Virus record (IMG/VR): IMGVR_UViG_2908959467_000004
Origin: a virus
Taxonomy: Duplodnaviria > Heunggongvirae > Uroviricota > Caudoviricetes
Length of the DNA stretch: 42,273 nt
Reading direction: 5' to 3' (one strand)
The position numbers and the translations under genes were made by a program. This document shows positions 1 through 42,273 of this stretch, piece by piece. The notes below the pieces were generated by a model, which had not been told where the DNA came from, made no database searches, and saw nothing but the letters and a program-made list of their open reading frames with translations. Position 1 is the first letter of the stretch. Each line of letters begins with the position of its first letter.

Positions 1-267
1 ATGCGCAGAAAAGAGTCAAACGTTAGCAGTTTGCCGGAACTCACCAATTTTGAGGTAAGCTATTCTCTGGTTACCAATGAAGTTTACTTGTCTGCATCCT
101 TCACTGATAACATGGTCTGTATACCAAACTGGCCCTTACAAGAATTTCCGGATCAACTAATATGCATTTCTCGAGCAAAAGCTGTTGCCCTAATCGAAGA
201 GCTCCAGAAGACCATCAACTATATGGATGCAGGAATAGATCGAAGTTCAGGTAGCCTTCTCCAGTAG
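1..267 (+). CDS. hypothetical protein (low-GC cargo gene beyond the tail module)
   Basis: 88-aa ORF starting at window position 1; AT-rich; no recognisable motif. Confidence 0.3.
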   Translation: MRRKESNVSSLPELTNFEVSYSLVTNEVYLSASFTDNMVCIPNWPLQEFPDQLICISRAKAVALIEELQKTINYMDAGIDRSSGSLLQ

Positions 268-327
268 CTGACGAGTTTTATAATAATTTGATATATATAT
301 ATCGTTCAATATTAGCGAGTACTTATA

Positions 328-975
328 ATGAGTGAATTTAGTAATTTTTTAAATAGCATTCCTGGATGGTTATCCTCCTCCCTCACAGCTCTAGTTGGTA
401 CTCTTATTGGCGGATGGTTTACCCTAAAAGGAGTTACCCAACAAGCTAAGCTGTCTAAAGTAGAGACAGAAAGAGAATCCCTTGAATTGCAACTTTCAGT
501 ATTAAAAGGTGTTAAGGGAGAAATTTTCACCCTAATCAATTTATATAATAAAAGGATGAAAACACACATTGATAGTATCAAACCCGGACAGATGTTAATT
601 CTCACTTTCCCTGTAGGGGATGATAATTTCACATTCTATGAGCAAAATGCGAATGTCATTGCAAAACTAAATGATTCTGCCAGAGACTCAATAATTAATA
701 TCTACACATATTCACGGTCATTAATACAATCATTTAAAGGAAACAACAAACTCATTGAGGATTATGAAAAAATCCTTATTGGTATGGCTGACAATAACAA
801 AGATAAAACCATGTATAAGAGATTACATGATGAAAAAATAGATGTAATGGTAGATTATGCTCAAGGGATAAAAAATATTGATGAAGAACTAAGAGATGCA
901 GTCAATAAGGGATTCAACATTATCGACCAAGAAGTAAAGTCGCTACAAATGAAATTAAACAAATTAGCTTCATAG
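328..975 (+). CDS. hypothetical membrane-anchored protein (one N-terminal hydrophobic helix, then a Lys/Asp/Glu-rich soluble domain)
   Basis: 215-aa ORF; N-terminal segment WLSSSLTALVGTLIGGWF looks transmembrane; AT-rich codon usage unlike the flanking tail genes. Confidence 0.45.
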   Translation: MSEFSNFLNSIPGWLSSSLTALVGTLIGGWFTLKGVTQQAKLSKVETERESLELQLSVLKGVKGEIFTLINLYNKRMKTHIDSIKPGQMLILTFPVGDDNFTFYEQNANVIAKLNDSARDSIINIYTYSRSLIQSFKGNNKLIEDYEKILIGMADNNKDKTMYKRLHDEKIDVMVDYAQGIKNIDEELRDAVNKGFNIIDQEVKSLQMKLNKLAS

Positions 976-1059
976 AAATGCTCCACTCCCTGTTCAAGAT
1001 TTTTACAAGCTTATCAGCCAGCCGTGGCACGTTCTTGCATACGACGTGCCACGGTTTCA

Positions 1060-1188
1060 TTCATCTCCGACCGGAAACTTCTTATACAAAGTCGATACGC
1101 CAACATCATAGATGATCGCCATTTTCTGGCGAGAAACTCCTGATGCAATTTGTCGTCCAGCCTGCGCCCATTGCTCCGGCGTGAGAGT
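1060..1188 (-). pseudogene. remnant of a Gin/Pin/Hin-family DNA invertase (C-terminal HTH only)
   Basis: Minus-strand translation LTPEQWAQAGRQIASGVSRQKMAIIYDVGVSTLYKKFPVGDE-stop resembles the C-terminal DNA-binding domain of Gin/Hin invertases as I recall them; no start codon and no catalytic N-terminal domain. Confidence 0.6.
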
Positions 1189-1269
1189 AAGACAGTAAAC
1201 TGTAGAAAAATCTCATTAAACTTAATATAATAATAAGTTACAGAATTATCTTTACTGAATAATAGACAT

Positions 1270-1815
1270 ATGAATATTAGTGAACTTAAAAACTGTATAC
1301 ACTATGAAGTAATAGGTTATAAACGCCCTTTCTCCTGGCGAAAAGCAATTGTTCGCGCAATAAAACACAGAAGATTACGTTATTTATTTTGGTGGCGCGT
1401 AGCAAAATATCTTTTTGATAAAGGAGGATACCGGCGAAAGATTGCAGGAAAAATAGAACGCTTCATTCTTGATAAATACAATGTAACCGTTCCCTTAACT
1501 GTAAATATTGGTAAAGGGTTCGACATATCTTATCTTAATGGCGTTGTTATCGGTCACAAAGTTACAATAGGTGAAAATTGTTCAATTAAGCCTGGGGTAA
1601 CTATTGGACTTCGCGGTGAATTTAATGATATGGATATTGTCATAGGAAATAATGTAACCATTGGCTGTAACGCCACCATCCTTGGTGGCAAAGTGCATAT
1701 AGGGAATAATGTAAAAATAGGAGCTCATGCATTGGTACTGCATGACATTCCTGATGACTCCACATTCATTACTAAATTTCACTCTGAAATTATTTATAAC
1801 TCATCTCACACATAA
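1270..1815 (+). CDS. hexapeptide-repeat (left-handed beta-helix) O-acetyltransferase, CysE/WcaB-like
   Basis: 181 aa; imperfect hexapeptide repeats IGKGFDISYLNGVVIGHKVTIGENCSIKPGVTIG...IGNNVTIGCNATILGGKVHIGNNVKIGAHALV; low GC; convergent with the tail fiber assembly gene. Confidence 0.7.
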   Translation: MNISELKNCIHYEVIGYKRPFSWRKAIVRAIKHRRLRYLFWWRVAKYLFDKGGYRRKIAGKIERFILDKYNVTVPLTVNIGKGFDISYLNGVVIGHKVTIGENCSIKPGVTIGLRGEFNDMDIVIGNNVTIGCNATILGGKVHIGNNVKIGAHALVLHDIPDDSTFITKFHSEIIYNSSHT

Positions 1816-1825
1816 TTCCGTTTAA

Positions 1826-2404
1826 TCACAGCTCTGGCCATACGATATCCGGGGCTGTATTTATATCAATCCGACTCACTAATACCCGGTATTTTTTCCA
1901 GGAAGATAGCATCGAGATTTCCTCATCAGTTGCCATTTCAAAATTAACAGCATCCTGCAGAATTGTTATGTTATCAGTCGCTTCCTGGATTAATCTTGCC
2001 TTTTTCTCTTCCGCCTCCCGGATCCGGAACAGTTTTTCTGCTTCTGCATCTTTCACCCAAGCTGTGCCGTTCCACTTCTGAAACTCCCCATCCGGCGACA
2101 ACCAGGTGACATTTTCCGGTAATGGGCCAAGTTCAGAAATAAATAACGCGTCCCCTGATGCCACGTCATAAACTGTTTTACCCCGATGGTCTTCAACAAG
2201 ATGCCACGATGCCTCATCACTGTTGAAAACAGCCACGAAGCCAGCCGGAATATCTGGCGGTGCAATATCGGTACTGTTTGCTGGCAGACCTGTATGAGGC
2301 GGAATGTATGCGTCACCTTCACCAACAAATTCATTAGTTCCGGCCAGCAGATTATAAATTGTTATGGTCCGTGGTTGTTCACTCATTCTGAAATCCATGT
2401 TCAC
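1826..2404 (-). CDS. tail fiber assembly protein (Tfa/Mu U-like chaperone)
   Basis: 192 aa; sits at the end of the tail fiber region where a Tfa is expected; composition typical of Tfa proteins. Confidence 0.7.
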
Positions 2405-2406
2405 CT

Positions 2407-3309
2407 CTACTTAATATCAGAGACAGAATATTGTTTATTGAGCGTATGGGTGTGAGCACCAATAACGATGCTACTTCCGTGGCTATGTGCGCCAGAGATG
2501 ACATTACCTACGGGATTTTCTGGATTAATCCGGTGTATATGCGAACCAGGGCGAAACCGGTTATTAGCCTGATGTTGTATCAGTACATCATCAGCCTGAT
2601 GTTCAGGGTTAATACAGACCTGCCCGGAACGTGAGCAATACGTCCGATAATCGCCGCATCCAATATATTTAGTATCCGCATAACGGCAAACAGAATTACC
2701 CGGACAGTATGCATATGTGCCAAATACTGCCGACTGGCGGGATTGTGCGTATTCCCAGTTAATTGATTCTGTTTTTTTATTAAAGTTATCCCATGCCTGC
2801 TTCATCTGCCGGGCAACACTTTCAAACGGCACCTGACCACATCCGGCTCCCATTGCAGGGAATACCACCGTTTTTATTTTCCTGTCTGTCGTTGCGTGTT
2901 TATTGTGCTGAAAGATGGCAAGCAGAGCGGCCCAGGTTGCATTATATACAGCGTCTGTTCCGGCAATTGTCAGCGGAACACGCATTGTTGGCGCATGTAC
3001 CAGCCAGGGGTGATGATTATGCCCCGTTTCAATTACAAATGCAGAACCTACAGGCTGTTCGCCTAGATATTCACGAAGAATATGATTCTGAACGCGGGAC
3101 TGTAACTGAGTACCGAAGAATGCGGTAATGGCGGCATCAACGCCGCCATCCATCAGGCCGAAACTATTTGCCGCACTTACCATGCAGTCAAATTCTCTGA
3201 TTGTTTCAAATGGCTTTCCGACAATATTCACATTATCTGCGGTTGCAAATACCCGCTTAAATGCTTCAGCCATTTCTGTTACTGGTGCAGAAAGAATGAG
3301 CGTAATCAT
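2407..3309 (-). CDS. macro-domain protein with tail-fiber-like His-x-His C-terminal region
   Basis: 300 aa; N-terminal ~190 aa carry macro-domain signatures ([18 protein letters not shown]; [17 protein letters not shown]; [21 protein letters not shown]); C-terminus is Cys-rich and ends [19 protein letters not shown]; start overlaps the tail fiber stop (ATGA). Confidence 0.7.
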
Positions 3310-4421
3310 GCAAGCCTCACAATATAGTTAAATGCGATGTTTTTGACGGTGTTTTCCGCGTTACCAGCAGCGTTAACGGTGATGGTGTGTCCATGTGAGC
3401 CAATCGCAACCGAGTGCGTATGAGCACCAATACCCACAGTATGTGTATGCGCCCCAGCACTTGCTGCAGTACCTGATACTGAGTGGGTATGCGCGCCCGC
3501 AGAATTCGTTGCACCTAAGTGAGTTTGAGCAGAGTTCGACGAAGCTATTCTACCGGACCTAACGTTAGCATTATCCCCCTGAGATATCGGATGCGTATGT
3601 GCGCCTGCTGAATCTGCTGTTCCACTAACGCTATGGGTATGCGCACCAGTGTTATTCGTAGATTTAGTTCCATAATCAAACGATGATGTGGTTTTCGTAC
3701 CCAAATCCGTATTGGATGCGCTGGCGCTGTGGGTGTGCGATTTAATGCCATCCTGTTCCTGAGACAATACGGCTCGACCACTGGCTGGCTTGCCCTTAAT
3801 CGTCCAGCCACGCATATCAGGGATCACGCCTGACGGATAAGCAACTGCAAGTTTCGGGTATGCAGATTTGTCAAAAGTCTGCCCCTGCATCAGGGCATAG
3901 CCAGACGGAACGGTATCTGATGGCCACGGGATCGGGGCACCTACAGGAAAGGTCGAATTATTTTCCAAACCAAGATATTTAAGGACATCAGCAACAGAGC
4001 TTTTTGCCAAAATATCTCGTCCAACCTGTGTCAGGTCAGCCAAATTAGCGGTATCTTGATTGGTAAAATACGGTAATTTGTTTTCGGATGCTGAAAGATT
4101 AGCAAGTGCGGTAAGTATGGTATTAATTCTCTGATAGTTCTTATCTAATGCAGACGACATTTTTGCGATAAAGCCGGCCTGATCGCCATCGTCCTGTACA
4201 TCCAGTCCACTTTCATTTGCTGTATATTGTGCCATTGCAGATGCAATAAAGCTGGCCTGCCGAATAACCTTATTGACTTGCGCACTGGATGCTTTCCCTG
4301 CTGTAAATCCGGATAAAAGCGCAGGCAACGCTTCCCATTCCTCCTGCGACATAACATTGGCATTTTTACCCGTTGCGAATGCTTTAAAGTCATTTTTTGC
4401 CATCAGAGTAATACTCCCCAT
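3306..4421 (-). CDS. tail fiber protein (T4 gp37/Mu S-like tip with His-x-His repeats)
   Basis: 371 aa; C-terminal repeats [56 protein letters not shown]; last gene of the baseplate module. Confidence 0.8.
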
Positions 4422-23551: not shown

Positions 23552-24076
23552 TTACCGGGATTGTTCTATTTGTCGGACACCAGCCAACTGGTTATTCGCC
23601 TTCTCGATGGCTGCCAACAATGGGTTAATCCACAGAACAGCCTGGCAATATGTCAACGTTCTGGTGGTAGTGGCACGATCACCGGCTGGGTCAATGTACC
23701 CGGAATCGGCGTGCACTGAGCTGGCGCGTAAACGGTTCGCGTAGTTGAGCAACCCGACAGCAATATCAGCAGGAACAGGGAAATCACAGTTCTTTTCACG
23801 GAGCAGAACCTCACGGTATTTGATGACTGTCTTCTCGTGACCGATGTCGACCAGAGAATTTAATCGGCTTGCGTTTTCTGCTATCTGGTTAAAACGATTG
23901 AAGTTGAATGCCTGATTAGCTATCACTTTCCCTTGATATTCAGCTTCACCTTCCGCTTTATCAGCCCGCAACTTTTCTGCCTGATACTTGCTATGGTAAT
24001 GGTTTGCAAGCCAGACGAGCGCCCCAAAGGCAGTGAAGAAAAATGCCGCGATGACAATCTTATAAGTCAGCTTCAT
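23552..24076 (-). CDS. Rz-like inner-membrane spanin
   Basis: 174 aa; N-terminal TM ending WLANHY (lambda Rz has WAVNHY) then coiled-coil; start overlaps the endolysin stop. Confidence 0.55.
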   Translation of the reverse strand: MKLTYKIVIAAFFFTAFGALVWLANHYHSKYQAEKLRADKAEGEAEYQGKVIANQAFNFNRFNQIAENASRLNSLVDIGHEKTVIKYREVLLREKNCDFPVPADIAVGLLNYANRLRASSVHADSGYIDPAGDRATTTRTLTYCQAVLWINPLLAAIEKANNQLAGVRQIEQSR

Positions 24077-24536
24077 TTACCACCCCACCAGCATCTTTAA
24101 ACCTGGAAATCAGGTCACCGATTTTATGTTCATACTGACCGTAACCTGCACCAGGTAACGACGCCCAGATATTGCTGCAACGGTCGATTGCCTGACGAAT
24201 ATCGCCGCAGTCAATCATCGGTAAAGCGCCACGCTCTTTAATCTGCTGCAGCGCCACAGAGTCCTGACTTTCTGGCGAAAAATCTTTCAGGCCAAGCTGC
24301 TTGCGGTAGGCATCCCACCAACGGGAAAGAATCTGGTAACGTCCGGCGGCTGTTGATTTGAGTTTAGAGTTTAGCGTGACAAGTTTGCGAGGGTGATCGG
24401 AGTAATCAGTGAACAGTTCGCCACCAACAATAACATCATAACCGTGGTTACGTGTCGGTTGTCGCCCGTTATCCGTTCCTTCTGACCATGCCACCATATC
24501 AAGGAAAGCTTTACGCTGGGGATTTAGTACCTGCAT
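24060..24536 (-). CDS. R: endolysin, lytic transglycosylase (lambda R-like)
   Basis: 158 aa; closely matches lambda R as I recall it (QRKAFLDM.AWSEGTDNGRQ.TRNHGYDVIVGGELFTDYSDHPRKLVTLN...). Confidence 0.9.
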   Translation of the reverse strand: MQVLNPQRKAFLDMVAWSEGTDNGRQPTRNHGYDVIVGGELFTDYSDHPRKLVTLNSKLKSTAAGRYQILSRWWDAYRKQLGLKDFSPESQDSVALQQIKERGALPMIDCGDIRQAIDRCSNIWASLPGAGYGQYEHKIGDLISRFKDAGGVVNEADL

Positions 24537-24539
24537 AAA

Positions 24540-24899
24540 TTACTCCTTCGAGCTACCAAATTTGTTACCGATTACTCGCATTGCAGCCCCACGAATAGCA
24601 TCGACACCGATCAGCCCCACGCCACCACCAATGGCAACAGAAAGCGATTTAGGCCATCCGACATACTCAAGAGCGGATGCAAAGGTCAGCGTCAGTGCGC
24701 CGCAGAGCAAAATCTCAAGCGTTTTTCGTTTCCAGCCGCCGCCACCGCCAAAATAGGCAATGCGCAAACCAGCCATAACAATCGACATAACCACTGCGCC
24801 CAACGGCGTATCTCCACGCCACCAACTTTGTAAGAGTTCCAGTAAGTCAGGCCAGGAATGAGGAGCATTGTGCATTTTCATACTTCCCACCTCCGCCAT
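24540..24899 (-). CDS. holin
   Basis: 119 aa; hydrophobic helices; nested start codons (MAEVGSMKM) typical of holin/antiholin; immediately upstream of the endolysin. Confidence 0.65.
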   Translation of the reverse strand: MAEVGSMKMHNAPHSWPDLLELLQSWWRGDTPLGAVVMSIVMAGLRIAYFGGGGGWKRKTLEILLCGALTLTFASALEYVGWPKSLSVAIGGGVGLIGVDAIRGAAMRVIGNKFGSSKE

Positions 24900-28880: not shown

Positions 28881-28909
28881 TTGTTTTTAATGTGGGGATA
28901 CACATTAAT
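28881..28909 (+). promoter_or_regulatory. pRM-like promoter with operator palindrome
   Basis: -35 TTGTTT (28881-28886), 17-bp spacer, -10 ATTAAT (28904-28909); perfect palindrome TTAATGTG-N6-CACATTAA at 28887-28908; ATACAA-N6-TTGTTT at 28869-28886. Confidence 0.4.
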
Positions 28910-28931
28910 ACAACCCAGAAGGACTAATCCC

Positions 28932-29555
28932 ATGTCTCTCGCAGCCCGTTTTAAAGCACGTCGTTTGGAATTAGGAATGACTCAAGTGGAAGTAGCGAAT
29001 TCTGCAGGGGTTAGCCAACAATCCATAGAATCCATCGAAAGTGGACGAACCAGAAAGCCACGCAATCTTCTGGATCTGGCTAAGGCCTTGAAATGTAGCC
29101 CAGACTGGCTACTGAACGGTAAAAATATTATGCCTCTCGCGGAGATAAGTACCAGACGCATACCTATATTAAGTTACGTTCAGGCAGGAGAGCTTACAGA
29201 AGCAAGAGACATAACAGATCTGACAGGGGAATTTGAATATATTTTGGCAGACTCTGACATTCCAGAAACATGCTTCGCATTACGTATCGATGGCGACAGC
29301 ATGCAACCAGAGTTTAAAGAAGGAGACATTGTTATCATCGATCCTGATCTATGTCCTGCACCAGGGGAGTTTGTTGTCGCCAAAAACGACGGTCACGAAG
29401 CTACATTTAAAAAATACCGTCCATTAGGAATCGGCATCGACGACTTTGAATTAATCCCCCTAAATCCTGATTACCCTATTTTTCGTAGTGCAGATATGAA
29501 CTTACAGATCATAGGTGTAATGATCGAACACCGTATTTACCGCCGTAAACGTTAG
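28932..29555 (+). CDS. CI-like repressor (HTH plus LexA/S24 peptidase domain)
   Basis: 207 aa from ATG at 28932 (SD AAGGA); HTH MTQVEVANSAGVSQQSIESIESG; S24 motifs GDSMQP and FKKY (Ser/Lys dyad). Confidence 0.8.
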   Translation: MSLAARFKARRLELGMTQVEVANSAGVSQQSIESIESGRTRKPRNLLDLAKALKCSPDWLLNGKNIMPLAEISTRRIPILSYVQAGELTEARDITDLTGEFEYILADSDIPETCFALRIDGDSMQPEFKEGDIVIIDPDLCPAPGEFVVAKNDGHEATFKKYRPLGIGIDDFELIPLNPDYPIFRSADMNLQIIGVMIEHRIYRRKR

Positions 29556-40207: not shown

Positions 40208-40404
40208 GCGAGAAACCCGACGATTTACTCACCCCGGATGAAGTATGCCAAAAGTTAGGTATTACACAGAAAACGCTATGTGAGTGGAATATTAAGCATC
40301 GTCATCGGGCTATCCTGGCACCAATTCGTTTCAGTGCAAAAGTAGTTCGTTATGAGCGCCGCAATGTCGACGCTTTTATTCAAAAGTGTCGCAGCCGGTA
40401 TTAA
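40204..40404 (+). CDS. excisionase/AlpA-like HTH protein
   Basis: 66 aa from ATG overlapping the helicase stop (ATGA); HTH LTPDEVCQKLGITQKTLCEW; convergent with and adjacent to integrase. Confidence 0.65.
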   Translation: MSEKPDDLLTPDEVCQKLGITQKTLCEWNIKHRHRAILAPIRFSAKVVRYERRNVDAFIQKCRSRY

Positions 40405-41804
40405 CCTCGCCGCCGTAGCAATGCCACCTGCGCAAGTATGCTCCGCTCGTGAGCCTCGAAAGCTTCGCGCTTTAACGCAATCTCTTCCTGTAAAATCTCA
40501 TCAGAAAAGTCGTAATGTTCTGCCATCGGGTCATCTGACTTACTGGAGTGGTGAAGGCAAAGGAGGCTGATTTCCCTTCGGTCTGATCGGGAATAGCCTC
40601 TTTCCTTCATCAAGGCAATAACATTGCTCTTAAGGAATTTACGGCACATCGTATTAAATGCACCGTCTTTCCCTTTAACAGTCCCATCATGTTTTATTCC
40701 TTTTACAGCCCCGTCCGGGCTGTATGTTTTCACCAGCTTATCCAGTGATCGTTTTGAAAATGGCTGCATTGGATCACGTGGCTGCAAAAATACATAATCC
40801 CTGTTGCACTCAGGAACTGAATCACGCCATGCTTTCTGCTCGTCGATAATCCGCCGGATCTCCGGCGTTATTGGCAGGCGGAAAGCCTTTTGTGTTTTCA
40901 TAGCCCCTCGCATGCCGATAACCCCTTCAGGATAAACAATTTCGCCAGTCTCCTCGTGAACGTAGTCCCAGCGCAGGTTATGGACATTAATCGGACGAAC
41001 GCCGGTGATGATCATGAAGCGAACAGCATTCTTCTGGTGTACAGAGGTGCAGGCTGCAACATTGAGCCAGAGCCGGGCGATTGACTCAATATCGGTAAAA
41101 AGCCGTGTGGGGGTGGGTTTCTGTACGCGGGAGGAAACATAATCATCTGGCAGACTGGCGGCAACATTGCGGCCATTGCAAAGAGTAGGTGCGCAGAACT
41201 TCCAGAACCGACGGAGCTCGGCAAACAACTCCAGGGCGTTATTGTTCGAGCGAGTGGCGATCCACTCGTCCAGCACTTCCACCAGCCGATTGTATGTTAC
41301 GTCGCTGAACACCTCGCGCTCGCCGAACGTGGCTTTAATCCGGTCGATACGCACCCCGTAGGTTGTGAAACTGTCCGGGCTCAGCTTCTGCCGGGCGACT
41401 TTGGCTTTGAGGTCATCCCGGTACATTTCCAGCGCTGCATGTACGGACTCTGCCCGCAGGCCACCGTCAGCCATACCTAGCGCTTTTTCGCGCGCCAGCT
41501 GGATAGCGAGCTCCGGCCACTCGCCGAGCTTTTTACCTTTGAGGCCCATCTTTTTTGGAAACTCGGCGTAAAATGTAACCTTACCGGCTTTGCTGAAATC
41601 GATACGGAGATAGTTCTCTTTTTCGTATTTGGAACGGCGAGCCACGCCGGAAGCAGCGAGGATGATTTTGGCGGCAGCAACACAGATTTTCATGTGTGCG
41701 CTGGTATAGGGGGGTTTACAGGCGTCCCATTTTTCAGATGCGGCTAAAACATCGTCATTATTGGGGCTATCCGGATTATGTGTTACAGTTCGCGGCATTC
41801 TCAA
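40401..41804 (-). CDS. tyrosine integrase
   Basis: 467 aa; C-terminal catalytic region with conserved Arg (ITGVRPINV), His (LCLHHS) and Tyr (AEHYDF); terminal gene next to host DNA. Confidence 0.85.
   Translation of the reverse strand: MRMPRTVTHNPDSPNNDDVLAASEKWDACKPPYTSAHMKICVAAAKIILAASGVARRSKYEKENYLRIDFSKAGKVTFYAEFPKKMGLKGKKLGEWPELAIQLAREKALGMADGGLRAESVHAALEMYRDDLKAKVARQKLSPDSFTTYGVRIDRIKATFGEREVFSDVTYNRLVEVLDEWIATRSNNNALELFAELRRFWKFCAPTLCNGRNVAASLPDDYVSSRVQKPTPTRLFTDIESIARLWLNVAACTSVHQKNAVRFMIITGVRPINVHNLRWDYVHEETGEIVYPEGVIGMRGAMKTQKAFRLPITPEIRRIIDEQKAWRDSVPECNRDYVFLQPRDPMQPFSKRSLDKLVKTYSPDGAVKGIKHDGTVKGKDGAFNTMCRKFLKSNVIALMKERGYSRSDRREISLLCLHHSSKSDDPMAEHYDFSDEILQEEIALKREAFEAHERSILAQVALLRRRG

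Positions 41805-42003: not shown

Positions 42004-42273
<270 letters not shown>

What the first reader, a model, noticed from the sequence alone, without database searches (positions are those of the whole stretch)
1..975. Two AT-rich unknown genes beyond the tail fiber region (possible accessory/defence cargo)
Both ORFs are much lower in GC than the structural genes and sit beyond the tail fiber assembly gene, where temperate phages often carry accessory cargo. The 215-aa protein has one N-terminal membrane anchor plus a charged soluble domain, an architecture common in abortive-infection proteins. The system may continue upstream of the window.
Basis: inference. Interest (0 to 1): 0.5.

Follow-up and report, generated by a model that had tools for sequence, protein, structure and literature searches.

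The report
Prophage-end SOS gene plus membrane cargo
The two genes are real but unrelated: one is a conserved, probably DNA-damage-switched gene that ends this E. coli prophage, and the other is a mobile, membrane-anchored accessory gene of an uncharacterised family that may protect against competing phages, which is untested.

Summary
Both ORFs are real (1-267, 88 aa; 328-975, 215 aa), AT-rich and under purifying selection. They are the last genes of a SEN34-like prophage integrated into the 5' end of yfhL. Only 206 bp separate ORF88 from the left att copy, so no further gene lies upstream.

They are not one system. ORF88 is a backbone gene that ends prophages of several morphotypes in Escherichia, Salmonella, Citrobacter and Klebsiella. 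It is preceded, just outside the window, by a conserved TTGACT -35 and a LexA (SOS) box at -30. In phage Fostie a DinI gene follows it, as in the SOS operons of phage 186 and the Gifsy prophages.

ORF215 is sporadic cargo, inserted between ORF88 and a Pin-type invertase that survives here only as a remnant. Its family has 467 clusters at 50% identity. Members have a Gly-rich N-out/C-in membrane anchor and a cytoplasmic three-helix bundle (AF2 pLDDT 95). They occur singly in prophages, phage-plasmids, ICEs and islands. The family matches nothing in Pfam, PADLOC, NCBIfam, PHROGs or PDB, nor SieA, SieB, RexA or 186 Orf97.

A defence or exclusion role rests on position and architecture only. The closest organisational analogue is the 186 operon p95-tum-orf97.

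The parts
1..267 (+). ORF88: an 88-aa acidic protein (pI 4.6) and the terminal backbone gene of the prophage. Its promoter (TTGACT -35) and LexA box CTGTACATAATTACAG lie just outside the window, at window coordinates -29..-14 (L001 11971-11986).
   Evidence: It matches phrog_17793 at E = 4e-44. Homologues of 54-90% identity occur in Salmonella, Citrobacter and Klebsiella, and one of 40% in Pantoea. It is always the last prophage gene, convergent with the tail fibre, Tfa or invertase genes. The LexA box sits at -30/-29 in four genera and in phage SEN34 (at -34 in phage Fostie).
268..327 (+). A 60-bp AT-rich spacer (23% GC) between ORF88 and ORF215. The homology break with prophages that lack ORF215 falls at about position 282.
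   Evidence: No terminator-like site was found on the + strand. The match to vB_EcoM-606R2 ends at 282. From about 283 the sequence aligns loosely with the region upstream of ORF215 homologues elsewhere.
328..975 (+). ORF215: a 215-aa single-pass membrane protein of an uncharacterised family, and mobile single-gene cargo.
   Evidence: define the family. The AF2 model has pLDDT 95.3: helix 13-82, conserved loop 83-115, helices 116-155 and 160-214. It has no Pfam, PADLOC, NCBIfam, PHROG or PDB match. dN/dS is 0.08-0.14.
364..426 (+). Codons 13-33 of ORF215: the transmembrane helix, with the conserved small-residue motif G24-x3-G28-G29-x5-G35.
   Evidence: G29 is conserved in at least 90% of 60 diverse members. 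Across the family there are 0.15 K/R before the helix and 3.4 K/R in the 15 residues after it. That gives N-out/C-in topology. Some members carry a signal peptide and a periplasmic N-terminal extension.
1020..1056 (.). A 14-bp-stem hairpin between ORF215 and the invertase remnant. It is a likely bidirectional transcription stop that belongs to the invertase 3' end.
   Evidence: Folding gives -26 kcal/mol, z = -4.0, and none of 200 shuffles folds as well. The 40-bp element recurs next to pinE 3' ends in several hundred E. coli genomes and near the ends of Stx phage records.
1072..1185 (-). Remnant (C-terminal HTH, residues about 143-180) of a Pin/Gin-type serine invertase. The catalytic domain is deleted.
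   Evidence: tblastn with the intact Citrobacter invertase gives 60.5% identity at E = 9e-12. PGAP annotates it as a partial HTH protein. Intact pinE sits at this position in strain 23CRST009.
1270..1815 (+). Hexapeptide-repeat (WcaB/CysE/EpsC-like) acetyltransferase. This is a second, independent cargo gene that replaces the invertase 5' part.
   Evidence: Hexapep scores 1e-13 and EpsC/CysE/WcaB-like models score below their cut-offs. It is absent where pinE is intact. It is replaced by a diverged acetyltransferase in other strains.
1826..2404 (-). Tail fibre assembly protein, the first gene of the structural module and the boundary of the cargo region.
   Evidence: Caudo_TAP scores 2.4e-38.
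42043..42060 (.). Right copy of the 18-bp att core AATTGTGATATGTGTGAA inside yfhL. With the left copy (L001 11777-11794) it fixes the prophage ends.
   Evidence: This follows from the alignment of the empty MG1655 site with both junctions. The integrase is at 40401-41804 on the minus strand.

Best explanation
The region holds two independent units at the int-distal end of a SEN34-like (Brunovirus-type) prophage integrated in yfhL.

(1) ORF88 is the conserved terminal gene of this and other enterobacterial prophages. It is transcribed inward from a sigma-70 promoter whose start region is covered by a LexA operator. It should therefore be silent in the lysogen and switched on by DNA damage. It is most likely the first gene of a small phage SOS operon, of the kind known from 186 (tum), PSP3/Fels-2 and the Gifsy phages (dinI-antirepressor). 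It probably acts as a small protein-binding modulator of induction or of RecA/SOS.

(2) ORF215 is a horizontally mobile one-gene module dropped between ORF88 and the Pin invertase. Its short N-terminus faces the periplasm. A Gly-rich transmembrane helix anchors it and probably lets it self-associate. A roughly 180-residue three-helix bundle with a conserved loop (FPVGDDNFTFYEQNA) sits in the cytoplasm.

The most likely job of ORF215 is to protect the cell that carries the element against incoming phages or other mobile DNA. It would do this either by interfering with DNA entry at the inner membrane or by sensing a phage product in the cytoplasm and perturbing the membrane (abortive infection).

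In this prophage ORF215 lies 60 bp behind ORF88 with no terminator between them. It is therefore probably also read from the SOS promoter, when repressor immunity collapses. This parallels orf97 of phage 186.

Shown: the gene reality, the prophage ends, the cargo status, the architecture, and the conservation of the LexA box. Inferred: LexA control, co-transcription, and the protective function and its mechanism.
For: Prophage ends and terminal position.

ORF88 as a backbone gene.
- It is terminal and inward-facing in Salmonella, Citrobacter, Klebsiella and Pantoea prophages with different tail modules and att sites.
- The same holds in phages SEN34 and Fostie.

LexA box.
- CTGT-N8-ACAG at L001 11971-11986 is the only perfect match in 25.9 kb, where 0.26 are expected. 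There are none in the 42-kb window.
- The same palindrome lies at -30/-29 in Salmonella (15/20 match to consensus), Citrobacter (16/20), Klebsiella (17/20) and SEN34, and at -34 in Fostie. A conserved TTGACT lies upstream, while the flanks diverge.
- In Fostie the homologue is followed directly by dinI.
- 186 has p95(LexA)-tum-orf97, where orf97 is a membrane protein whose plasmid expression blocks 186 infection. This comes from the record annotation and its translation.
- LexA-controlled small antirepressors next to dinI are established for Gifsy, 186 and PSP3 (PMC3121763; PMC5322425).

ORF215 as cargo.
- Genome counts.
- The slot is empty in Citrobacter, where ORF88 abuts the invertase.
- It holds other genes in 606R2, Salmonella, SEN34 and strain A34.
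- No neighbour is shared among 12 loci.
- Low GC (33-37%) is kept in hosts that differ widely in genomic G+C (own knowledge).

Contexts typical of lysogen-protective genes.
- In Providencia prophages it lies directly downstream of the S24 cI repressor, the position of lambda rexAB.
- It sits next to HigBA.
- It sits in an ICE near CcdAB.
- It sits in SSU5-like phage-plasmids as a lone opposite-strand gene.
- It sits next to the integrase of a P4-alpha-primase element.
- It sits as an insert in the late operon of a Mu-like prophage.

Architecture.
Against: - There is no experimental datum for either gene.
- No PADLOC model hits ORF215, 60 relatives or nine neighbouring genes.
- There is no profile similarity to lambda SieB or RexA, P22 SieA or SieB, or 186 Orf97.
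- Foldseek against PDB and BFVD gives only generic helical bundles (best E about 0.05).
- The same slot also carries genes unrelated to phage defence: catalase and ferritin-like stress genes in strain A34, and polysaccharide-modifying enzymes elsewhere. The location alone is therefore not diagnostic.
- ORF215 homologues elsewhere have no LexA box, so SOS control is at best local.
- Promoter-like matches in the region do not exceed chance.
- The cytoplasmic location of the bulk of the protein fits poorly with a periplasmic block of DNA injection.
- For ORF88, there is no similarity to Tum. The AF2 model is poor (pLDDT 65).
- This prophage's repressor has the Ala-Gly site, the GDSM serine and the lysine of a self-cleaving repressor. 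An antirepressor is therefore not needed for induction.
Confidence: 0.4

Rival explanations
1. ORF215 is a lysogenic-conversion or host-fitness factor unrelated to phage defence. It might be an envelope or membrane-homeostasis protein, or a partner of the surface-polysaccharide-modifying enzymes that occupy the same slot.
For: The slot carries an O-acetyltransferase in SEN34, a GT4 glycosyltransferase in Salmonella prophages, a hexapeptide acetyltransferase here, and stress genes in strain A34. ORF215 is membrane-anchored. No known defence family matches it.
Against: ORF215 occurs without any acetyltransferase where pinE is intact. No neighbour is conserved across 12 loci. It has no enzyme-like conserved residues: only E65 and F101 are invariant. 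Its spread over phages, phage-plasmids, ICEs and islands, including the position downstream of cI, is typical of conflict genes.
Confidence: 0.2
2. ORF215 serves the carrying element's own lytic cycle. It might be a membrane-bound regulator of lysis timing, of DNA exit or entry, or of host physiology. On this reading it is expressed on induction and not in the lysogen.
For: It lies downstream of an SOS-controlled promoter with no terminator between. A 28%-identical relative is embedded in the late operon of a Mu-like prophage, between the Mu F and G homologues, and overlaps the next gene. Its single-TM and cytoplasmic-helix architecture resembles holin/antiholin-type regulators in outline only.
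Against: It is missing from most relatives of the same prophage and from all 50,697 phage records. It therefore cannot be needed for growth. It is far from the lysis cassette (24060-24899 region). It also occurs in non-phage elements, namely an ICE and a chromosomal islet.
Confidence: 0.12
3. ORF88 and ORF215 form one two-gene system, such as a toxin-antitoxin or a sensor-effector abortive-infection pair. This is what the first reader implied.
For: They are adjacent, on the same strand, 60 bp apart and both AT-rich. About two thirds of E. coli genomes with ORF88 also have ORF215 (79 against 124).
Against: ORF88 homologues in Salmonella, Citrobacter, Klebsiella, Pantoea, SEN34 and Fostie never have ORF215 next to them. 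ORF215 homologues in Enterobacter, Dickeya, Providencia, Salmonella, Budvicia and others never have ORF88. The homology break falls between them at about position 282.
Confidence: 0.04
4. ORF88 is specifically an SOS-induced antirepressor (Tum/GfoA-like) that inactivates this or a co-resident prophage's repressor.
For: The LexA box and -35 are conserved in four genera. The protein is small and acidic. It is followed by dinI in Fostie, the arrangement described for PSP3/Fels-2, and reversed in Gifsy (PMC3121763). Trans-acting antirepressors that act on other prophages are documented in the same paper.
Confidence: 0.2

Closest known systems
SOS operon of coliphage 186 (p95-tum-orf97)
   Same: Both have a LexA operator overlapping a promoter near one end of the phage genome. 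In both, a small first gene is followed on the same strand by a gene for a membrane protein of about 215-245 residues. For 186, plasmid expression of orf97 blocks 186 infection (record annotation; translation; PMC5322425).
   Different: There is no detectable sequence similarity for either gene. Orf97 has two N-terminal hydrophobic segments and a non-helical-bundle C-terminus. ORF215 is present in only some copies of the prophage. 186 CI is not self-cleaving, whereas this prophage's repressor looks self-cleaving.
LexA-controlled dinI/antirepressor operons of the Gifsy prophages, PSP3 and Fels-2
   Same: These are small LexA-repressed genes in prophages of Salmonella, Escherichia, Citrobacter and Klebsiella. 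The ORF88 homologue of phage Fostie is followed directly by dinI (PMC3121763).
   Different: No dinI is present in this window. No homology of ORF88 to any characterised antirepressor was found. Its function has not been tested.
Prophage superinfection-exclusion and abortive-infection membrane proteins (P22 SieA/SieB, lambda SieB and RexAB)
   Same: These are prophage-borne inner-membrane proteins of 150-280 residues, dispensable for phage growth. In Providencia prophages the ORF215 homologue occupies the position downstream of cI that rexAB holds in lambda.
   Different: Profile-profile comparison finds no relationship, with probability at most 1%. Pfam SieB (PF14163) hits none of 60 members. 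ORF215 has a single TM and a three-helix bundle. Its phenotype is unknown.
Variable cargo hotspots of temperate phages and satellites (P2/P4 hotspots; 'morons')
   Same: This is a fixed slot between conserved genes, here ORF88 and the invertase or Tfa. It is filled with different low-GC genes in different copies of the same prophage. P2/P4 hotspots of antiviral systems are described in PMC9122126 (listed).
   Different: This slot is in a Brunovirus-type prophage. Its known contents are mixed: polysaccharide-modifying enzymes, stress genes and unknowns. None of the contents matched a PADLOC model.

Membership tests
SieB (Pfam PF14163; lambda and P22 SieB) | Sequence or profile similarity to SieB | tested here: not met
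   There is no Pfam hit for ORF215 or 60 relatives. hhalign of the family profile gives probability 1.0% against lambda SieB and 0.5% against P22 SieB.
P22 SieA | Sequence or profile similarity to SieA | tested here: not met
   hhalign gives a probability of 0.1%.
RexAB | Two-gene unit with a RexA-like sensor and a four-TM RexB | tested here: not met
   hhalign against RexA gives a probability of 0.3%. ORF215 has a single TM. No partner gene is conserved.
Any known or candidate defence system in PADLOC-DB 2.0 | HMM match of the protein, its relatives or its neighbours | tested here: not met
   ORF88 and ORF215 give 0 families at E <= 1. Sixty relatives give only scattered single hits of E >= 1e-4 to unrelated models. 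Nine neighbouring proteins give none.
Phage SOS operon (186 p95-tum-orf97 type) | LexA box overlapping the promoter of the first gene | tested here: met
   CTGT-N8-ACAG lies 14-29 nt upstream of the ORF88 ATG and is conserved in four genera and two phages. The site is outside the window by 14 nt.
Phage SOS operon (186 p95-tum-orf97 type) | LexA binding and DNA-damage induction of the transcript | not testable with these tools
   This needs EMSA or footprinting and RT-qPCR with and without mitomycin C, in lexA+ and lexA(Ind-) hosts.
Phage SOS operon (186 p95-tum-orf97 type) | Homology of the gene products to Tum and Orf97 | tested here: not met
   hhalign gives a probability of 0.4% for each pair.
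Gifsy/PSP3-type LexA-controlled antirepressor | Cognate repressor that is not self-cleaving | tested here: not met
   The repressor at 28881-29555 has HTH_3 and Peptidase_S24 domains. It also carries a QAG cleavage motif, GDSM and FKK.
Gifsy/PSP3-type LexA-controlled antirepressor | Genetic linkage with a dinI homologue in one LexA-controlled unit | tested here: inconclusive
   The feature is met in phage Fostie but no dinI is present in this window.
Two-gene toxin-antitoxin or Abi pair ORF88+ORF215 | Conserved co-occurrence of both genes | tested here: not met
   The genes are found apart in every lineage outside this E. coli prophage.
Prophage moron / hotspot cargo | Variable presence within otherwise syntenic prophages, with deviant base composition | tested here: met
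   The counts are 79 against 124 genomes. Alternative slot contents are seen. GC is 33% against 50-52%.
Prophage moron / hotspot cargo | Own promoter and terminator | tested here: inconclusive
   Promoter-like hits are not above chance. Only about 45 bp of the family-typical upstream region is retained. A strong hairpin lies downstream at 1020-1056 but lacks a good T-run.
Single-pass N-out/C-in inner-membrane protein | One hydrophobic helix with positive-inside charge bias | tested here: met
   Mean KD19 is 1.90, and 87% of 60 members reach 1.6 or more. K/R is 0.15 before the helix and 3.4 after it. No second hydrophobic segment exists. Relatives with signal peptides agree with this topology. 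Experimental topology was not tested.

The most novel reading that the evidence does not exclude
The ORF215 family is a new, widespread single-gene membrane immunity or exclusion module of mobile elements. Its cytoplasmic three-helix bundle would recognise an invader's component and its glycine-rich transmembrane helix would execute the response. The ORF88 family would be a previously unrecognised SOS-controlled regulator placed at the int-distal end of many enterobacterial prophages. Together they would show that prophages time part of their protective cargo to the moment when repressor immunity collapses.
Probability: 0.25. Interest if true: 0.6.

Novelty: new variant of a known kind. Interest (0 to 1): 0.4.

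Why it matters
If ORF215 protects against phages or other mobile DNA, it adds a large unannotated protein family to the catalogue of one-gene membrane defences. The family has 467 clusters at 50% identity and sits in phages, phage-plasmids, ICEs and islands.

Two things about it are unusual:
- its fold is simple and easy to mutate and test;
- in this prophage it is probably under SOS control.

The ORF88 result matters independently. It identifies a conserved LexA-operated gene at the end of prophages of four genera. That gene is mostly left unannotated in RefSeq E. coli genomes. It extends the known set of phage SOS operons beyond P2/186-like and Gifsy phages.

If neither gene shows a phenotype, the region is ordinary prophage-end cargo.

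Tried and rejected
- **Family libraries.** ORF215 gave nothing in Pfam, NCBIfam, PHROGs or PADLOC, and ORF88 gave only an unnamed PHROG. The same libraries run on 60 relatives gave only scattered noise.
- **PDB sequence profile.** Nothing scored below E = 0.1.
- **Fold searches for ORF215.** Foldseek against PDB and BFVD returned only generic helical bundles: BAR, PA28, MCP 4HB and designed bundles. The afdb50 library was not available.
- **My guess that ORF88 is HicB/UPF0150-like** was not supported by any search.
- **Domain fusions.** Ten longer relatives showed no added enzymatic domain, only N-terminal signal peptides and periplasmic extensions.
- **Neighbour clustering.** Twelve loci shared no partner gene. 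PADLOC on nine neighbours found nothing.
- **Related loci.** The first search for related loci attempt failed because no stretch was conserved enough. The second returned only 7 loci.
- **Promoter and terminator scan.** Hits were not above chance.
- **Rfam.** Only sub-threshold matches appeared.
- **LexA boxes upstream of ORF215 homologues elsewhere.** None was found.
- **Literature.** Accession-number searches found nothing. The paper on serine recombinases as markers of defence genes (PMC12632615) is general background. It does not cover this protein.
- **The vB_EcoM-606R2 'phage' record.** It includes host genes tadA to yfhH, so it cannot be used to define phage ends.
Full report
**What the window is.** The 42.3-kb window is an almost complete prophage of the Salmonella phage SEN34 type. 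Megablast over the structural genes gives 82% identity to SEN34 and 97% to E. coli prophage-derived records.

The right end carries a tyrosine integrase (40401-41804, minus strand), followed by yfhL (42013-42273). I aligned the empty site of MG1655 with the left junction of a near-identical lysogen (STEC383, 99.6% over 1-1900) and with the right junction in the window. This shows an 18-bp core, AATTGTGATATGTGTGAA, inside the 5' end of yfhL.

The phage supplies a replacement 5' end for yfhL on the right. The original yfhL start is left as a stub on the left. The left core ends 206 bp before window position 1. Only a regulatory region lies there.

**The observation.** Both ORFs are at the stated coordinates.
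- GC content: ORF215 is 33.0% and ORF88 is 42.7%. The structural genes are 52.0%.
- Selection: dN/dS for ORF215 is 0.08-0.14 against homologues at 65-75% nucleotide identity. ORF88 has saturated dS with dN of 0.13-0.22.

Going inward from ORF215, the order is as follows:
- a strong hairpin at 1020-1056 (-26 kcal/mol, z = -4);
- the C-terminal HTH remnant of a Pin/Gin invertase at 1072-1185, minus strand;
- a hexapeptide acetyltransferase gene at 1270-1815;
- the tail fibre assembly gene at 1826-2404.

**The two genes are separate modules.** ORF88 homologues number 59 by single-sequence search and 76 by profile search, at 54-90% identity, with one Pantoea protein at 40%. They occur in Escherichia, Salmonella, Citrobacter, Klebsiella and Pantoea.

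In every locus examined ORF88 is the terminal prophage gene. It faces inward and is convergent with tail fibre, Tfa or invertase genes. This holds although the tail modules and integration sites differ. In the circular SEN34 genome and in phage Fostie it sits next to attP, opposite the integrase.

The slot between ORF88 and the tail genes is filled differently in different prophages:

| Prophage or strain | Content of the slot |
|---|---|
| Citrobacter | Nothing; ORF88 overlaps the 3' end of an intact invertase |
| vB_EcoM-606R2 | A 281-aa unknown protein |
| Salmonella prophages | 58-aa and 89-aa ORFs plus a GT4 glycosyltransferase |
| SEN34 | A 73-aa ORF plus an O-acetyltransferase |
| Phage Fostie | dinI |
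| E. coli A34 | ORF215 plus stress genes |
| E. coli 23CRST009 | ORF215 alone, beside intact pinE |

ORF88 is in 124 of 5426 complete E. coli genomes and ORF215 is in 79. The homology break lies at about 282, between the two genes.

Conversely, ORF215 homologues elsewhere never have ORF88 beside them. All-against-all comparison of neighbours in 12 loci found no shared partner.

**ORF88: a conserved SOS operator.** Aligning the upstream regions of E. coli, Salmonella and Citrobacter loci shows two conserved islands in otherwise diverged sequence. One is TTGACT. About 30 nt downstream lies the palindrome CTGT-N8-(A/C)CAG, at -30/-29 from the ATG.
- The E. coli site (CTGTACATAATTACAG, L001 11971-11986, window -29..-14) is the only perfect match in 25.9 kb, where 0.26 are expected. 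The window itself has none.
- Klebsiella has TACTGTACATAAAAACAGTA, 17 of 20 consensus positions.
- SEN34 also carries a box at -30, and Fostie one at -34.

This is the geometry of a LexA-repressed promoter. LexA binding itself was not tested.

In Fostie the homologue is followed at once by a DinI gene. That is the logic of known phage SOS operons:
- 186 tum is an antirepressor fused to DinI.
- PSP3 and Fels-2 have the two halves split.
- The Gifsy prophages have dinI followed by a small antirepressor (PMC3121763; PMC5322425).

**ORF215: family and architecture.** Close homologues (62-75% identity, 215-223 aa) occur across Enterobacterales. An exhaustive phmmer search finds 467 representative clusters at E <= 1e-3, nearly all 185-260 aa and aligned end to end. 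All members with a source name are called 'hypothetical protein'.

No member matches any of the following:
- Pfam, NCBIfam, PHROGs or PADLOC;
- PDB by sequence;
- lambda SieB or RexA, P22 SieA or SieB, or 186 Orf97 by profile comparison.

The AF2 model is very confident (pLDDT 95.3, pTM 0.81). One helix runs from residue 13 to 82. A structured loop at 83-115 carries the most conserved motif, FPVGDDNFTFYEQNA (family consensus PVxQDYFTxYxxNA). Two long helices, 116-155 and 160-214, pack back to form a three-helix bundle. Foldseek against PDB and BFVD gives only generic bundles.

Across 60 diverse members:
- there is one hydrophobic helix (mean KD19 of 1.90);
- the N-tail averages 9 residues with 0.15 K/R, against 3.4 K/R in the 15 residues after the helix;
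- longer relatives add a signal peptide and a periplasmic extension at the N-terminus.

The topology is therefore N-out/C-in, and the bundle is cytoplasmic. The transmembrane helix itself is conserved (AxxGxxIGGxFTLxG; G29 in at least 90% of members). That is more than a passive anchor needs and suggests helix-helix packing in the membrane. This last point is inference from general knowledge of small-xxx-small motifs.

No catalytic-looking residue set is conserved, and no enzymatic domain is ever fused.

**ORF215: where it lives.** Every context found is a mobile element or an islet:
- this prophage end;
- an Enterobacter islet beside HigBA;
- a Dickeya ICE near CcdAB and type IV secretion genes;
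- Providencia lambdoid prophages, directly after the S24 cI repressor and an HSDR_N-domain gene on the same strand, which is the place of rexAB in lambda;
- a Salmonella contig with ParA, a portal gene and a DUF927 (primase-type) protein;
- SSU5-like phage-plasmids of 106-127 kb, where it is a lone opposite-strand gene;
- a Klebsiella island next to an integrase;
- a Budvicia element with a P4-alpha-like primase and an integrase;
- a Mu-like prophage, where it is wedged into the late operon.

It is absent from 50,697 phage records. Its GC stays at 33-37% whatever the host.

**Mechanism proposed.** Shown: ORF215 is a dispensable, mobile, single-gene, inner-membrane-anchored protein with a cytoplasmic helical bundle. 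ORF88 has a conserved LexA-type operator.

Inferred: ORF215 protects the cell carrying the element against incoming phage or other mobile DNA. The cytoplasmic bundle would act as the recognition part and the Gly-rich helix as the membrane-acting or partner-binding part.

In this prophage, read-through from the SOS promoter would raise ORF215 expression when repressor immunity fails. The gap is 60 bp and no terminator was found. The annotated behaviour of 186 orf97 is the nearest precedent.

I put this at 0.4 overall. The defence-specific part alone is about 0.35.

**Against the proposal.**
- No known defence family matches.
- The slot contents are mixed and include non-defence genes.
- ORF215 homologues elsewhere have no LexA box.
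- No phenotype exists for either gene.

The region is a variable cargo slot at the end of a Brunovirus-type prophage, beside a newly noticed SOS-operated backbone gene. This is a known kind of arrangement built from uncharacterised protein families. It is worth a simple phage-challenge and LexA-binding experiment, but it is not a striking anomaly.

Noticed in passing
Just outside the window, at window coordinates -62..-14 (L001 11939-11986): A conserved TTGACT -35 and a LexA box, CTGTACATAATTACAG, lie upstream of ORF88. The palindrome sits at -30/-29 in Salmonella, Citrobacter, Klebsiella and phage SEN34, and at -34 in phage Fostie. In Fostie the gene is followed by dinI.
   Followed up: yes
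window 2407-3309 (-): A 300-aa protein has an N-terminal Macro (ADP-ribose-binding/hydrolase) domain (Pfam 1e-18) and GxHxH tail-fibre-type repeats at its C-terminus. It is inserted between the tail fibre gene (3306-4421) and the tail fibre assembly gene. It matches phrog_2613 (unknown) and phrog_14717 ('tail protein'). A macro domain in a tail-fibre locus is unusual.
   Followed up: no
window 1072-1815: The Pin/Gin invertase has lost its catalytic domain, and probably its invertible tail-fibre segment, to an inserted WcaB/CysE-like hexapeptide acetyltransferase gene. Other strains keep intact pinE with invertible Tfa cassettes (L038) or carry a diverged acetyltransferase (L002).
   Followed up: partly
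window 42013-42060 and L001 11747-11800: Integration into the 5' end of yfhL replaces its first 16 codons with a phage-borne version ([16 protein letters not shown] in place of [16 protein letters not shown]) and a phage-borne upstream region. The native yfhL promoter and start are left pointing into the prophage end, towards ORF88 and ORF215.
   Followed up: partly
window 1015-1054: A 40-bp hairpin element at the invertase 3' end is 97-100% identical to sequences next to pinE or HTH remnants in several hundred E. coli genomes. It also matches sequences near the ends of 41 Stx-converting phage records.
   Followed up: no
L039 6254-8467 (E. coli A34): The same cargo slot, downstream of ORF215, carries a general stress protein, two ferritin-like proteins and a manganese catalase. 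The slot is therefore not restricted to phage-conflict genes.
   Followed up: no
L021 6013-8657 (Providencia prophage): cI (HTH and S24 domains), a 385-aa HSDR_N-domain protein and the ORF215 homologue lie in one direction with 10-bp and 128-bp gaps. The layout resembles cI-rexA-rexB. The 385-aa protein has no PADLOC match.
   Followed up: partly
window 1-267, in RefSeq E. coli genomes: ORF88 is left unannotated in most complete E. coli genomes that contain it: 'none' appears under the match in 11 of 12 sampled rows. Some metagenome gene calls extend it to 140-145 aa.
   Followed up: no
window 312-632 (-): A 106-aa antisense ORF inside ORF215 recurs in homologous loci only because it mirrors the conserved sense gene. 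It is not a gene.
   Followed up: yes
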